The position numbers and the translations under genes are program-made. This document shows, piece by piece, positions 8,103-14,338 of a stretch of 64,000 bases of DNA. The stretch comes from Candidatus Heimdallarchaeota archaeon. GTDB lineage: Archaea > Asgardarchaeota > Wukongarchaeia > Wukongarchaeales > JBHIFL01. The DNA lies in NCBI GenBank assembly GCA_046761065.1, contig JBHIFL010000008.1:1-64000 (forward strand), read 5' to 3'. Position 1 is the first letter of the stretch. Each line of letters starts with the position of its first letter. The notes under the pieces were generated by a model that saw only the letters and a program-made list of their open reading frames with translations, was not told the origin of the DNA and did no database searches.

Positions 8103-9452
8103 TTATGATGATGATGAAATTCCCTCGACCCAAGAGGGGCGTGTGCTGAAATTCTTGGCTTCGATGTGAAATTCAAGCGCTGTCGTGTTCACCTCATGTA
8201 GATCTTCAGAAATTATTCTCCTCTTGATGAACCGTTTTCTCAACTCCTCTGCGAAAGCTTCAGGAAATATAATCACTTCTTTTTGATCATCAAACCGCTC
8301 ATACCCGTCAAATGAGGGGCCAAGAGGATCAATACTCCATCGCATATGAAAATCTACTATGGGACCGTACCCTGCAGGTAGCTGTGTAAGACGAATGCGA
8401 CGATTTTTTGTAACTTTTAACAGATCTAAACCAAACATACCGAGCCGAAACAATTCGGCATTTCCTCTAATTTCCTCATGGGTAAGTTCTATGAAGGTTC
8501 GGACATGCCGACGAGGAACAATCTTGAGTTGAAAGTTATAAGATGGTGCAAATGCGGCACAAAGGGTTCCAAAATCATTTTCCGCAATACGCAACATTTC
8601 AAACGGCATAGGCATCCCGCCAAACTCGAAGATGCCTCCACGTTCACAATGACAACACATACATCCTTCTCCTTCTTCCTGACGTTCTTTGGCAGTCAAG
8701 ATCGCTTGTTCCATCATTGTAGAATGGCCTGAGTCCGATAAATCAGCATAGAGTTTAGCAAAAATAGGGTTATTATTTTTACTTGATGGAGTAATCAAAT
8801 TAAGGAAGATCTCAAAAGGGATCGTAGAAACATATCGTTCTTCTGGGGTGAGTTTGACCGAGTTTCCTGCGCATTCTTGAATGATGAGCTGTTGACTCTC
8901 TTTTATTGCATGAAGAATCATCTCTAACTGCTCTAGCGGCATTTGCAGAAAATCCATATAAAGATTGGTAGGAAACGTAATAAGAGAGATTCCATATGCC
9001 ATGTTGGGAATGGCAGAACTTATATTATCAACCCGGACCATTGGTGGGAATCGGTCAATTAAAGAAATGGCAGAATTAGGTTCAAATGAATATTTGTGCA
9101 AGCTCGTAGAAAACAAATCGTCGCCCATTTTGACTCTATTTTGTTGATCGATCATTAAAATTGGGAGGCAAAAAGCCGTCCCTGATACCAATTTATCAAA
9201 CTCATGGGATATTTTGGGGGGTGTTGTTTGGAGTGAAAGTGGGTTATCATTTCGCGCGGCACGAATATAGGAAACTCCCCCATGAACTTTACCTATATAT
9301 TGTCCGTTTAGTTGGATTTTTCTTGTTCTGAATGGATCATAACGCTTGATTGGAAATCGGAATGGAGGAACGCCTTGAGCGTTCTCTTCTGTTATAATGC
9401 CCCAATGCATAAACGGAATATACTTTGGCACTTCTTCATTGACTTTCCGCAC
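8103..9452 (-). CDS. GalT/HIT-superfamily protein, catalytically degenerate paralog (HxHxQ lost)
   Basis: Colinear with 10771-12127 (PIKRYDPFR, HKYSF, LYADLSD, IRLTQLP); N-x-G..GS..HxHxQ replaced by NLITPSSKNNNPIFAK; AGGTGA RBS before GTG. Confidence 0.8.
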   Translation of the reverse strand: MRKVNEEVPKYIPFMHWGIITEENAQGVPPFRFPIKRYDPFRTRKIQLNGQYIGKVHGGVSYIRAARNDNPLSLQTTPPKISHEFDKLVSGTAFCLPILMIDQQNRVKMGDDLFSTSLHKYSFEPNSAISLIDRFPPMVRVDNISSAIPNMAYGISLITFPTNLYMDFLQMPLEQLEMILHAIKESQQLIIQECAGNSVKLTPEERYVSTIPFEIFLNLITPSSKNNNPIFAKLYADLSDSGHSTMMEQAILTAKERQEEGEGCMCCHCERGGIFEFGGMPMPFEMLRIAENDFGTLCAAFAPSYNFQLKIVPRRHVRTFIELTHEEIRGNAELFRLGMFGLDLLKVTKNRRIRLTQLPAGYGPIVDFHMRWSIDPLGPSFDGYERFDDQKEVIIFPEAFAEELRKRFIKRRIISEDLHEVNTTALEFHIEAKNFSTRPSWVEGISSSS

Positions 9453-10502: not shown

Positions 10503-10770
10503 AGATCCCTAGTTCATGGGTCTTTTTCGATATTGCAATGAATTGTTTAAACATTCGGACATTCAGACAATTCCTTTTCGATTTAAGTGTTTTCCTAGCT
10601 ATTTTTTGCAAAGATTGATAAATAATTGTTTTCTAAAGAAAAACCTATTAAAGCTCTCAACTTTGAAGAATCTGATATTCGCTTAACCAAAAAGGTACTT
10701 AAAGCACTAGGTGAAAAACTCATTATTTTCATCTATAAAGTAAAATAGGTTCTATAAGGTGACAAGGGAT

Positions 10771-12127
10771 ATGCGACAAATTGATGAATCGACGCCTCAA
10801 GTGATTCCATTCATGCATAGAAGCGCACTCAGTCGTGTTCTTCGCAGATTGGGGAATCATCTCAAAAACTAATATGGTGGGTGTCGAACCCTGGCAGTAT
10901 CCAATTAAACGATTTGATCCATTTCGAATGCGGCCTATCCGAATTAAAGAACAGCCGATAGGAAAGATAACAGGTCGATTCACCTATATAAGTGCAGTTA
11001 GAGCGCAAAGGCCTATGACCATAACTCCCGCTTCTATAGGTGAGAAGTCCCCCACACAATTTGTGTATGAGAAGATAGTTTTAGGTCAAGACTATTGTAT
11101 CCCTATTTTGACAGTAGATGGAAACCAAGAACTCCAGATATATAACAATCTTTTTTCAACCACTGCCCATAAATACGATTTCGCGGAAGATTCGGTTATC
11201 TCAATTATCAATAAATTTCCTGCCATGGTTCGCTATGATGAATCTAACAGTGGCATCCCGAACCTTGCTCGAGGGCTTTGTTTGGTTGCGTTTCCCACGA
11301 AACATTATACACGATTATTAGATATGCCAAATGATGCTATTTCAGACCTTTTGTTGGCATTACAGGAGTCACAACGATTAATTGCTGACACAACAACGGG
11401 GAAAATCGTTCCACTGGTTCCTGAAGGGCGATACGTTGAGACTGTCACTATTGAAGTTTTCTTTAACATCGGAGCAGCTGTTGGAGGATCAATTGATCAC
11501 ATTCACGGTCAACTTTACGCTGATCTTTCAGATACTGGACATTCGATCACCACCGAATGGGCTATCTTAACGGCGCAAGACAAAGAGCTAGGGTGCATCT
11601 CATGCCGAATGATACAGGGAGATATTAAGGAACTGGGAGGCATCCCTTTCCCATTCGATCGCTTAAAGATCGCTGAAAACGCATATGGAGTCTTGTATGC
11701 GAGTTTTGCTCCGACAGCTAATTATCAGTTAAAAATTATCCCGCGCCTTCACCGCCGTTTTTTCACGGATTTCACCCCGGAGGAACTTGATGCACTTGCA
11801 GAATTGCTACGGTTAGCTTTTTTTGGCCTTGATTACCTGGAAGTTCCGGCAGATAGGAATATACGGTTGACACAACTTCCCCATGGATATGGGGCCGAGA
11901 CAGATTTCCATTGTCGATGGTCGATCGATCCATTTGATACTTTTGGGGGTTTTGAGCGGAGAGGTGATCAGAAGGTTGCAAAAGTGTTTCCAGAGCATAT
12001 AGCTTCGATGTTACGCCACCTCTTTCTCCAGCGACGCATTATTACACCCGACTTGTATCACATCAATAGTGCTGAGCTAAACAAACACATCAGAGCCAAA
12101 CGATTGAGCCAACTTCTTTCTGATTAA
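10771..12127 (+). CDS. GalT/HIT-family nucleotidyltransferase; split gene join(10771..10818,10850..12127), 441 aa
   Basis: AGGTGA RBS (10757-10762) before ATG 10771; exon 1 MRQIDESTPQVIPFMH aligns with paralog MRKVNEEVPKYIPFMH; exon 2 starts WGII; NKFPA and NIGAAVGGSIDHIHGQ active-site motifs (HIHGQ at 11498-11512). Confidence 0.85.
10819..10849 (+). other. Candidate 31-nt archaeal bulge-helix-bulge mRNA intron
   Basis: Bulges ATA (10817-19) and ATT (10848-50) flank central helix ATGC/GCAG; inner stem GAAG-C-GCAC/GTGT-T-CTTC; exon-exon stem GTGATTCC/GGAATCAT; removal restores frame and the paralog sequence. Confidence 0.8.
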
Positions 12128-13033: not shown

Positions 13034-14338
13034 TTGTTGATGATTACTTTGAATTCGACAACATCCTCACGAAAGAATGATAACTTTGCTCTCATTCATG
13101 GGCCAAGCCATGTCACGTTAACAAAGGGTTGTATGGAGGTTTTTGGAAAGATAATTGAGCAAGGAGAATCATTTATCGTGCCCTATGGGAAAACAACACC
13201 TGTTATCCTTCGATCAGAGACTCAACTCTCTGATCTTCAAGTCAAATCCGGTACAGGAGGAGCTCTCGAACATTTAACAGAGAATCCAATTCCTAAGTTA
13301 TGGGGAGATCTTGCCAATCAACTCATCATGACCCGAGAAGCTCTTTGGATGATAATCGGTGGTCCTGATACTGGTAAAACTGGACTAATCACCTTCCTTG
13401 TCAATCAATGTTTACTCAAAAACAGAAACACAGCAATCATTGATAGCGACATTGGACAGTCAAATATCGGTCCTCCCACTACCATCGGGCTTGCAATGCC
13501 TTCCTCACCAGAAATCTTTCTATCTAACCATCCAATGAAGCAAGGTTACTTTATCGGGTCAACAAGCCCTCGTAGCCATCTCCTTCAAACCTGTTGTGGT
13601 GTCCGGAAGTTGGTAGATTCTGCGTATGACCTTGGAGCTGAGATTGTTTTGCTTGATACCTCTGGCTATATTGAAGGATCTGCTGCACGAGCCTTGAAAT
13701 ACCATAAAGCAGTGCTAATTGAGCCCTCCTCCATATTAGCTCTTCAACGTGAGAATGAATTAGAACATATTCTCACGTCCTTAGATAGTTTCGCACCTAT
13801 AGTCCGCATGGACCCGCCTTTTTCAGTTCAGTTAAAAAATCATGATATTCGAGGTACCTATCGGGAAACACGGTTCAAGAAAGTCTTTGCAGGCGCCCGC
13901 TCAGTTACTTTTTCCTTTAAGGATGTCCGGTTGTTAGGAACCGCACTTGGGTATGGGACGTCCATTACAGCATATGAGAAATTAGTTAAGCTGCTTAATA
14001 CAAAAATTATATGGGCTCAGAAAAATTCTGATCGGTTGCTACTTGTAGTTCAGGAACAATTCTCCACACAAAACCTAGACTTGCTGAAAGAAGAGTATAA
14101 CGTAAAACAAATCCAATTTATATTCTATCGAGACCTTCTAGGCTTGATTGTAGGGTTATTGGCTGAAAATCACACCTTCTTAACCGTAGGTCTTCTCCAA
14201 GACATCCGATTTAATGAGAAGATAGTTATTCGCACAACAGTGAATAAACCAGAGCAAGTGAAATTCATTACATTGGGAAGGATCCAGCTTACCCAGGATG
14301 GGAAACAGATCGGTCGGATTCCTGTTGGTTATCTCTAA
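13034..14338 (+). CDS. clp1: Polynucleotide 5'-hydroxyl kinase, Clp1/Nol9/Grc3 family
   Basis: Walker A GGPDTGKT, DSDIGQSNIGPP, DTSGY motifs; N-terminal beta domain; C-terminal domain. Confidence 0.9.
   Translation: MLMITLNSTTSSRKNDNFALIHGPSHVTLTKGCMEVFGKIIEQGESFIVPYGKTTPVILRSETQLSDLQVKSGTGGALEHLTENPIPKLWGDLANQLIMTREALWMIIGGPDTGKTGLITFLVNQCLLKNRNTAIIDSDIGQSNIGPPTTIGLAMPSSPEIFLSNHPMKQGYFIGSTSPRSHLLQTCCGVRKLVDSAYDLGAEIVLLDTSGYIEGSAARALKYHKAVLIEPSSILALQRENELEHILTSLDSFAPIVRMDPPFSVQLKNHDIRGTYRETRFKKVFAGARSVTFSFKDVRLLGTALGYGTSITAYEKLVKLLNTKIIWAQKNSDRLLLVVQEQFSTQNLDLLKEEYNVKQIQFIFYRDLLGLIVGLLAENHTFLTVGLLQDIRFNEKIVIRTTVNKPEQVKFITLGRIQLTQDGKQIGRIPVGYL

What the first reader, a model, noticed from the sequence alone, without database searches (positions are those of the whole stretch)
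10771..10872. Candidate bulge-helix-bulge intron in an mRNA acting as a frameshift switch
Seen: RBS plus ATG 10771 encodes 16 residues (MRQIDESTPQVIPFMH) matching the paralog N-terminus position for position. Then 31 extra nt (10819-10849) shift the frame, and WGII resumes at 10850. Unspliced, translation stops at TAA 10870-72 (33 aa). The RNA folds as: exon-exon stem 10801-08/10853-60 plus C10812-G10851 and U10811.G10852; 4-bp central helix AUGC(10813-16)/GCAG(10844-47) with one A.G pair; 3-nt bulges AUA (10817-19) and AUU (10848-50) on opposite strands; intron hairpin GAAG-C-GCAC-UCAGUC-GUGU-U-CUUC. Known: archaeal tRNA splicing endonuclease cuts after the second nucleotide of each bulge, which here gives exactly CAU|UGG (His-Trp), as in the intron-less paralog. 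The established archaeal mRNA case is crenarchaeal cbf5; eukaryotic XBP1/HAC1 use tRNA-ligase-dependent non-spliceosomal splicing. Inference: EndA/RtcB-dependent mRNA splicing gates this enzyme in a probable Asgard archaeon. Gene callers hide it by starting at GTG 10835.
Basis: partly seen in the sequence, partly recalled or inferred. Interest (0 to 1): 0.95.

Follow-up and report, generated by a model that had tools for sequence, protein, structure and literature searches.

The report
tRNA-type intron inside archaeal gene
A conserved 31-base non-coding insert breaks the reading frame of an enzyme gene in a Heimdall-type Asgard archaeon, folds like an archaeal tRNA intron and is most likely cut out of the mRNA by the tRNA-splicing enzymes, which inside an archaeal coding sequence has so far been proven only for the cbf5 gene.

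Summary
ATG 10771 opens 16 codons (MRQIDESTPQVIPFMH). Then 31 nt (10819-10849) break the frame, and WGII... resumes at 10850 in a 425-codon GalT/HIT-like ORF.

Seven distinct orthologous sequences from independent assemblies carry an insert of exactly 31 nt at the same site. A sister clade (73% aa identity), the paralogue in this window and distant homologues read PFM[HEQ]WGII without interruption.

The insert evolves about three times slower than four-fold sites. Its variable positions sit in unpaired nucleotides, and one stem pair changes compensatorily.

That motif is relaxed: the central helix has an A.G mismatch, and the 3' bulge is not formed in the minimum-energy fold.

The genome encodes an (alpha-beta)2 EndA with the broad-specificity loop, plus RtcB and archease. 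Its single rpoA1 gene carries a textbook 31-nt BHB insert, and EF-2 and uS5 are also interrupted. The scan had already noted such cases elsewhere in this genome.

Best reading (about 0.8): a constitutive EndA/RtcB-spliced mRNA intron. No RNA data were available, and nothing supports a regulatory 'switch'.

The parts
10758..10762 (+). Shine-Dalgarno-like GGTGA, 8 nt upstream of the exon-1 start codon
   Evidence: Read directly. GGTGA is kept at the same distance in all intron-bearing orthologues.
10771..10818 (+). Exon 1: 16 codons, MRQIDESTPQVIPFMH
   Evidence: In all 7 orthologue variants it has 16 codons with an ATG/GTG start and no stop or indel. Its changes are conservative or synonymous. 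It matches the N-terminus of intron-less orthologues P0004/P0018 and of the paralogue.
10819..10849 (+). 31-nt intron, phase 0, between His16 and Trp17
   Evidence: Absent from L025/L045 (ATGCAC|TGGGGAATC) and present at exactly 31 nt in 7 variants. It shows 7/31 differences where 4-fold sites show 0.71.
10850..12127 (+). Exon 2: 425 codons plus stop. GalT/HIT-like enzyme (weak DUF4921 match) with an HIHGQ motif.
   Evidence: Codon-position divergence of 0.175/0.088/0.524 shows purifying selection.
10801..10812 (+). 5' strand of the exon-exon outer helix. It pairs with 10851-10860, with A10809 and U10810 unpaired.
   Evidence: All pairs are invariant in 7 sequences.
10813..10816 (+). 5' strand of the central helix (AUGC). 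It pairs with GCAG 10844-10847, with A10813.G10847 mismatched.
10817..10819 (+). 5' bulge AUA, with the predicted cut after U10818
   Evidence: It is a 3-nt bulge in the MFE fold. The third nucleotide varies A/U among orthologues.
10820..10843 (+). Intron hairpin: GAAG/CUUC and GCAC/GUGU stems with a 6-nt loop
   Evidence: Pair 10825/10838 occurs as A-U (4), G.U (2) and C-G (1). The loop and the unpaired 10824 vary.
10848..10850 (+). Proposed 3' bulge AUU, with the predicted cut after U10849
   Evidence: It forms only in the alternative conformer, 4.5 kcal/mol above the MFE. This register is the only one with BHB geometry.
10851..10860 (+). 3' strand of the exon-exon outer helix
8103..9452 (-). 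Intron-less paralogue (449 aa) with a contiguous IPFMHWGII. It lacks the HxHxQ motif.

Best explanation
The 31 nt at 10819-10849 are an archaeal bulge-helix-bulge-type intron (relaxed form) inside the coding sequence of a GalT/HIT-like enzyme gene of a Heimdall-type Asgard archaeon.

Proposed mechanism. The pre-mRNA folds so that codons 11-16 of exon 1 pair with the first codons of exon 2 and with the 3' end of the intron. The heterotetrameric (alpha-beta)2 splicing endonuclease cuts after U10818 and after U10849. RtcB, helped by archease, joins CAU|UGG and probably circularises the 31-mer. The spliced mRNA encodes a 441-aa protein (16 + 425 residues) with the family's contiguous PFMHWGII N-terminal motif.

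Shown here: the insert, its exact conservation, the selection on it, the fit of structure to boundary, and the presence of the enzymes.

Inferred: cleavage, ligation and translation of the joined message. Splicing is most likely constitutive, as for tRNA introns, rather than a switch.
For: 1. Same-site insert of exactly 31 nt in 7 distinct orthologue sequences. They come from independent assemblies: NCBI MAGs, ENA, Logan and JGI.
2. A sister clade lacks it precisely (L025, L045: ATGCAC|TGGGGAATC). In the tree the intron-bearing clade has support 100/96, the intron-less sister clade 97/95, and the intron-less paralogue group falls outside both.
3. The insert is under purifying selection. Window against L024 shows 7/31 differences where four-fold sites show 0.71 (binomial 4.5e-8).
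4. Variation respects the fold. 8 of 11 unpaired intron columns vary, against 2 of 20 paired columns, and those two form one compensated pair (A-U, G.U, C-G). Fisher p = 7e-4.
5. Only the register 10818|19 / 10849|50 has BHB geometry, with a background frequency of 2.1e-4. The fold has z = -3.0.
6. Exon 1 keeps its SD, its start codon and 16 open codons with conservative changes. PFM[HEQ]WGII is contiguous in homologues of about 30% identity.
7. In L023 frame 0 is closed by UGA right after His16, and the target frame is closed by UAG inside the insert, so a single frameshift cannot rescue the gene.
8. Machinery. Two EndA-domain genes are present. One has the Tyr/His/Lys triad and one lacks the His. 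The catalytic one aligns without gaps to A. pernix EndA alpha (3P1Z_B, E 7e-41) through the CSL, including the Lys44 equivalent (PMC3241643). RtcB and the adjacent archease gene are present. Asgard EndA is reported to be (alpha-beta)2 with this loop (PMC5829648).
9. Same genome. The only rpoA1 gene has a 31-nt frame-breaking insert whose MFE fold is a textbook hBHBh'. Pfam Rpb1_1 positions 2-27 lie before it and 31-312 after it. EF-2 is split at DTPG|H by 33 nt that contain a TAA, and uS5 is split by 35 nt.
Against: No RNA evidence: no spliced junction, no circular intron and no peptide.

The motif is not canonical. The central helix has an A.G mismatch. The 3' bulge forms only in a conformer 4.5 kcal/mol above the MFE.

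Only one pair covaries, and the column-shuffle test is not significant (80/500).

The helices that involve exons are also constrained by coding, so their invariance is uninformative.

GTG 10835 is conserved, although it lies in a stem, so a shorter protein from an internal start cannot be excluded by sequence alone.
Confidence: 0.8

Rival explanations
1. No splicing. The protein starts inside or after the insert (GTG 10835 or ATG 10883). The 16 upstream codons are a relic or a small upstream ORF. The conserved hairpin is a 5' leader element.
For: GTG 10835 is invariant in all 7 variants. Gene callers choose it or a downstream start. Exon 2 is clearly under purifying selection whichever start is used.
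Against: GTG 10835 sits in the hairpin stem, and no SD precedes it. Exon 1 keeps its SD, start, length and frame across lineages whose four-fold sites are near saturation. The N-terminal PFM[HEQ]WGII motif is contiguous family-wide, so this protein would lack a conserved element. This model does not explain why the exact 31-nt length and the exon-exon pairing geometry coincide with the homology-defined boundary. It cannot explain the rpoA1 case in the same genome.
Confidence: 0.1
2. Translational bypassing. The ribosome takes off at His16 and hops over 31 nt, as in phage T4 gene 60, landing before UGG.
For: A hairpin starts right after the take-off codon. In two of the seven variants (L023, L024; L039 and L027 carry the same sequences as these) a UGA stop follows CAU directly.
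Against: There is no matching landing codon: the last codon of the gap is GAU in all variants, not CAU/CAC. The stop after the take-off codon is missing in the window and in 4 other variants. Bypassing does not need the exon-exon helix or the bulge geometry. No bypassing system is known in archaea (own knowledge).
Confidence: 0.04
3. A dead insertion. The 31 nt are an insertion scar or mini-element, and the gene is a pseudogene or an assembly artefact.
For: The insert breaks the frame. AU dinucleotides flank it on both sides.
Against: It is present in four separately assembled runs at depth 16-36 and in several independent MAGs and metagenomes. Exon 2 shows strong purifying selection. The insert itself is conserved. 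No other copy exists in the genome. Real decay in this family looks different: paralogue B in L023 carries a nonsense codon plus a 1-nt frameshift.
Confidence: 0.03
4. A regulated switch. Splicing happens but is conditional, and it gates enzyme production as IRE1 does for HAC1/XBP1.
For: The intron lies 48 nt into the ORF, where ribosomes and EndA could compete. The unspliced message yields only a 16-33 aa peptide.
Against: No regulator or sensor is evident. No Ire1-type RNase domain was found, although that search has no positive control. Similar inserts in housekeeping genes (rpoA1, EF-2, uS5) argue for constitutive removal.
Confidence: 0.08

Closest known systems
cbf5 pre-mRNA intron of Crenarchaeota (Desulfurococcales, Sulfolobales; Watanabe 2002, Yokobori 2009, PMC2738675)
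   Same: A short intron (16-44 bp there, 31 nt here) inside a coding sequence. The BHB motif is often relaxed. The host has a hetero-oligomeric EndA with broad specificity. The intron was gained and lost among close relatives. Gene callers mis-annotate the gene.
   Different: Different phylum (Asgard, Heimdall-type) and a different host gene (GalT/HIT-like enzyme, not cbf5). Here the intron sits at codon 16/17 rather than at the catalytic residue. Splicing is not yet shown experimentally here.
BHB intron in the 5' UTR of HVO_1309 mRNA, Haloferax volcanii (PMC7714728)
   Same: An mRNA substrate of the archaeal splicing endonuclease outside tRNA and rRNA.
   Different: That intron is in the untranslated leader and does not interrupt the reading frame. 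The host enzyme is the alpha'2 type.
Non-canonical tRNA introns of Asgard and TACK archaea (PMC5829648; PMC11291895; bioRxiv 10.64898/2026.10.13.758758)
   Same: Same predicted machinery and motif, and a similar length. This genome also looks tRNA-intron-rich: ARAGORN recognises only 19 tRNAs, 16 of them with introns.
   Different: The host RNA is a translated mRNA, so removal must restore a reading frame and has to coexist with translation.
HAC1/XBP1 unconventional splicing (IRE1 + tRNA ligase/RtcB)
   Same: Non-spliceosomal excision of a short frame-changing intron from an mRNA, with ligation by a tRNA ligase (RtcB in metazoa).
   Different: The endonuclease there is IRE1, which recognises twin 7-nt loops and is stress-regulated. 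No Ire1 RNase domain was found here. Here the cut sites sit in a BHB-like motif.
Phage T4 gene 60 translational bypass
   Same: A short untranslated gap inside an ORF, with a hairpin at its start.
   Different: Bypassing requires matched take-off and landing codons, which are absent here. It involves no RNA cleavage.

Membership tests
Archaeal BHB intron (EndA/RtcB substrate) | [quoted passage not shown] | tested here: inconclusive
   The 5' bulge AUA is in the MFE fold. The 3' bulge AUU forms only in a conformer 4.5 kcal/mol above the MFE. The central helix has 3 pairs plus an A.G mismatch. This fits the 'relaxed' class that CSL-bearing enzymes cut (PMC3241643, PMC2738675).
Archaeal BHB intron (EndA/RtcB substrate) | Flanking helices: exon-exon (h) and intron-internal (h') | tested here: met
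   The outer helix has 2+8 pairs and the inner hairpin 4+4 pairs, all kept in 7 sequences.
Archaeal BHB intron (EndA/RtcB substrate) | Cuts after the second bulge nucleotide give the functional junction | tested here: met
   The predicted cuts 10818|19 and 10849|50 give CAU|UGG. That is the junction of the intron-less orthologues and paralogues.
Archaeal BHB intron (EndA/RtcB substrate) | Host encodes a splicing endonuclease able to cut relaxed motifs, and an RNA ligase | tested here: met
   EndA alpha and beta are present. The CSL with the Lys44 equivalent is kept. RtcB and archease are present.
Archaeal BHB intron (EndA/RtcB substrate) | Structure conserved by selection (covariation) | tested here: inconclusive
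   One compensated pair was found. Variable sites concentrate in unpaired columns (p = 7e-4). The shuffle test is not significant (80/500).
Archaeal BHB intron (EndA/RtcB substrate) | Intron absent from mature RNA; circular intron formed | not testable with these tools
   No RNA run was listed for this DNA.
cbf5-type pre-mRNA intron | Located in the cbf5 (pseudouridine synthase) gene | tested here: not met
   The host gene is GalT/HIT-like with a weak DUF4921 match. The case works like the cbf5 intron but is not a member of that orthologous intron.
Translational bypass element (gene 60 type) | Identical take-off and landing codons flank the gap | tested here: not met
   The take-off codon is CAU. 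The codon before UGG is GAU in all 7 variants.
IRE1-type unconventional splicing | Ire1 kinase-RNase present | tested here: inconclusive
   PF06479 was not found in the 91%-complete genome, but the control genomes have none either.

The most novel reading that the evidence does not exclude
This intron is one member of a genome-wide population of about 30-36-nt BHB introns in protein-coding genes of a Heimdall-type Asgard lineage, including essential ones (RNA polymerase A', EF-2, uS5). Under that reading, splicing of mRNAs by the tRNA-splicing machinery is routine in close prokaryotic relatives of eukaryotes, with consequences for how transcription and translation are coordinated there.
Probability: 0.6. 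Interest if true: 0.92.

Novelty: new member of a known kind. Interest (0 to 1): 0.8.

Why it matters
In the literature I could search, cbf5 of Crenarchaeota has since 2002 been the only confirmed intron inside an archaeal coding sequence, and the Haloferax case lies in a 5' UTR (PMC2738675, PMC7714728). I found no paper that reports BHB introns in protein-coding genes of Asgard archaea.

This case is a clean comparative example. Intron-bearing and intron-less orthologues both exist. The intron is under selection. The right enzymes are encoded.

It lies in a genome where essential genes look interrupted in the same way. If confirmed, it shows that mRNA splicing by EndA/RtcB is not a crenarchaeal oddity. 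It would give a tractable substrate for testing how an organism with coupled transcription and translation handles introns in messages. It would also expose a systematic blind spot of prokaryotic gene callers, which truncate or split such genes.

Tried and rejected
RNA evidence: the run search listed no RNA holder for this DNA. Only DNA contigs of one hydrothermal-vent study could be laid.

Genome-wide census: a structure-plus-ORF-merging scan over both strands was compared with a mirror-repeat decoy. It gave no enrichment (for example 170 real against 181 decoy hits for a 4-bp central helix, at least 4 inner and at least 3 outer pairs, and a 24-44 nt spacing). Ordinary gene junctions swamp it, so it says nothing about the number of introns.

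More relatives: the genome-contig scan found none. A search with the N-terminal 80 residues of the intron-less orthologue for short spliced fragments found nothing.

Mobile-element idea: blastn-short found no second copy of the 31-mer in the genome.

Single programmed frameshift: rejected, because in L023 both relevant frames are closed inside the insert.

Column-shuffle covariation test: not significant.

Rigid BHB geometry at the uS5 insert: not met by my function; its fold is a long hairpin.

Candidate 30-nt insert at 25403-25432: neither flanking ORF has a Pfam hit, so it is left open.

Full report
**1. What is in the sequence.**
- An SD-like GGTGA (10758-10762) precedes ATG 10771, which opens 16 codons, MRQIDESTPQVIPFMH, ending at 10818.
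- The following 31 nt (10819-10849) shift the frame.
- TGG GGA ATC ATC (WGII) at 10850 continues for 425 codons to the stop at 12125-12127.
- Read unspliced from ATG 10771, the frame stops at TAA 10870-10872 after 33 residues.
- Database gene calls for this and related DNA start at GTG 10835 (430 aa) or at a downstream ATG/GTG (416-418 aa).
- The divergently placed paralogue at 8103-9452 (-) is 47% identical and reads YIPFMHWGII without interruption.

**2. The host gene and organism.**
- The ORF matches DUF4921 weakly. It also matches galactose-1-phosphate uridylyltransferase models and structures weakly.
- It carries an HIHGQ motif of the HIT/GalT type. The paralogue lacks that motif.
- The genome has 4.42 Mb in 234 contigs, is 91% complete and is archaeal.
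- An 89%-identical orthologue lies in an NCBI MAG named Candidatus Heimdallarchaeota archaeon.

**3. Comparative evidence.**
- Protein and locus searches recovered orthologues in independent assemblies. These were four NCBI MAGs, ENA and Logan assemblies and a JGI metagenome.
- Seven distinct sequences (window, L023, L038, L026, L024, L041, L043) carry an insert of exactly 31 nt at the same site.
- Two orthologues of 73% aa identity (L025 and L045; L045 lies on an 18-kb JGI contig) read ATGCAC|TGGGGAATC with no insert.
- In a maximum-likelihood tree the intron-bearing sequences form one clade (support 100/96). It is sister to the intron-less clade (97/95). The intron-less paralogue group falls outside both.
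- One gain on the stem of the intron clade is therefore the simplest history.
- Homologues of about 30% identity in other Asgard genomes, and a third paralogue in this genome, also have a contiguous PFM[HEQ]WGII-like N-terminal motif. The insert therefore splits a conserved protein element.

**4. Selection.**
- Between the window and L024, four-fold degenerate sites differ at 0.71. Codon positions 1, 2 and 3 differ at 0.175, 0.088 and 0.524, so exon 2 is under purifying selection.
- The 31-nt insert differs at only 7 positions (0.23; binomial 4.5e-8 against the four-fold rate) and never changes length.
- Within the insert, 8 of the 11 columns that are unpaired in the proposed fold vary.
- Only 2 of the 20 paired columns vary. 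Those two are partners (10825/10838) seen as A-U, G.U and C-G. Fisher p = 7e-4.
- The formal shuffle test of covariation is not significant (80/500), because only one pair varies.
- Exon 1 always keeps an ATG/GTG start, the upstream GGTGA and 16 open codons. Its changes are conservative or synonymous: I/V/L, D/N, E/D, R/Q/K, S/T/K, plus silent Thr, Pro and Gln changes.

**5. Structure.**
- The MFE fold (-21.3 kcal/mol, z = -3.0) contains three of the described elements. These are the 8-bp exon-exon helix (10801-08/10853-60), a 3-nt bulge AUA (10817-19) and the intron hairpin.
- The 3' splice site lies in an AU/UUGG internal loop in that fold.
It has an A.G mismatch at the end of the 4-bp helix.
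- This is a relaxed motif of the kind reported for cbf5 introns. Endonucleases carrying the Crenarchaea-specific loop cut such motifs (PMC2738675, PMC3241643).
- The boundary defined purely by homology allows three equivalent cut registers. Only 10818|19 / 10849|50 shows BHB geometry.
- That geometry has a genome background of 2.1e-4 per position.

**6. Machinery.**
- The genome has two EndA-domain genes. One has the catalytic Tyr/His/Lys, and one lacks the His.
- The catalytic one aligns without gaps to A. pernix EndA alpha (3P1Z_B, E = 7e-41). The alignment runs through the loop region, including the Lys44 equivalent that is needed for broad specificity (PMC3241643).
- This agrees with the published (alpha-beta)2 plus L1-loop assignment for Asgard archaea (PMC5829648).
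- RtcB and an adjacent archease gene are present.
- ARAGORN recognises only 19 tRNAs, 16 of them with introns. This is as expected for the heavily interrupted tRNA sets described in some Asgard lineages (PMC11291895; bioRxiv 10.64898/2026.10.13.758758).

**7. Context in the same genome.**
- Earlier notes of this scan listed similar candidates elsewhere in this genome. I tested three of them.
- rpoA1: the only copy has a 31-nt frame-breaking insert at C2:18012-18042 (-). Its MFE fold is a textbook helix-bulge-helix-bulge-helix: ACG/CGU, GCAG/CUGU, bulges AUC and AAA, and GGUGA/UCACU.
- In rpoA1, Pfam Rpb1 domain 1 positions 2-27 lie before the insert and 31-312 after it.
- EF-2: it is split at DTPG|HVDF by 33 in-frame nt that contain a TAA (C76:15449-15481). 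The fold is BHB-like.
- uS5: it is split by 35 nt (C19:7212-7246). These fold as a long hairpin and do not fit my rigid BHB test.
- An organism cannot do without these genes, so it must remove such inserts. This makes removal of the focal insert by the same route very plausible. It also argues against a gene-specific regulatory switch.

**8. Rivals.**
- Single programmed frameshift: excluded in L023, where UGA closes frame 0 directly after His16 and UAG closes the target frame inside the insert.
- Translational bypass: it lacks a matching landing codon, which is GAU rather than CAU in all variants.
- Pseudogene or artefact: contradicted by four separately assembled runs at 16-36x that show no variant (these may include the source sample). 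The independent MAGs and the selection data also contradict it. A genuinely decaying copy of paralogue B in L023 shows what decay looks like, namely a nonsense codon plus a 1-nt frameshift.
- Internal start at GTG 10835: it cannot be excluded by sequence alone. It leaves the conserved exon 1, the exact length and the boundary-structure coincidence unexplained.

**9. What is missing.**
- No RNA data could be found, so cleavage, ligation and the spliced protein are inferred.
- My genome-wide structure-plus-ORF scan was uninformative against a decoy.

**10. Verdict.**
- The intron interpretation is well supported by comparative evidence (confidence about 0.8).
- The 'switch' part is unsupported.
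- It is a new member (new phylum, new host gene) of the known kind represented by the crenarchaeal cbf5 intron.
- It probably belongs to a larger set of mRNA introns in this Asgard lineage.

Noticed in passing
G000 C2:18012-18042 (-) (locus L029): The only rpoA1 (RNA polymerase A') gene carries a 31-nt frame-breaking insert with an in-frame UGA. Its MFE fold is a textbook hBHBh'. Pfam Rpb1_1 positions 2-27 lie before it and 31-312 after it.
   Followed up: yes
G000 C76:15449-15481 (+) (locus L031): EF-2 is split at the G3 motif DTPG|HVDF by 33 in-frame nt that contain a TAA. The fold is BHB-like, with a 10-bp intron stem and CGGAC direct repeats at the boundaries.
   Followed up: partly
G000 C19:7212-7246 (+) (locus L028): The uS5 gene is interrupted by 35 nt inside LVQ(K)QTDAGRK. 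The insert folds as a long hairpin and does not fit a rigid BHB geometry.
   Followed up: partly
whole genome G000: ARAGORN finds only 19 tRNA genes in a 4.4-Mb, 91%-complete genome, 16 of them with introns. This suggests that most tRNA genes are too interrupted to be recognised.
   Followed up: no
window 8103-9452 (-); L023:186-1507 (-): The intron-less paralogue lacks the HxHxQ motif, so it is probably catalytically inactive. In the 89% relative (L023) it is decaying, with a TAG nonsense codon plus a 1-nt frameshift.
   Followed up: partly
window 13034-14338 (+): A CLP1 P-loop (polynucleotide 5'-kinase family) gene lies two genes downstream. The order RNase HII - intron gene - cyclase - CLP1 is conserved in L023. 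In eukaryotes Clp1 associates with the tRNA splicing endonuclease. The link here may be coincidental.
   Followed up: no
window 25403-25432 (+): A candidate 30-nt BHB-like insert (3 of 4 central, 5 inner and 4 outer pairs). Its removal would fuse two membrane-protein ORFs (24904-25431 and 25447-26004) into about 357 codons. Neither ORF has a Pfam hit, so it may be just a gene junction.
   Followed up: partly
L003 (G039:C15:102467-103621 -) and L008 (G035:C105:5897-6979 +): Distant homologues of the host gene in other Asgard genomes show one internal TAA and one internal TAG in the matched frame. They were not examined for introns.
   Followed up: no
G000 C14:28843-30730 (-): The archease and RtcB genes are adjacent, in the classic tRNA-splicing ligase operon arrangement.
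   Followed up: no
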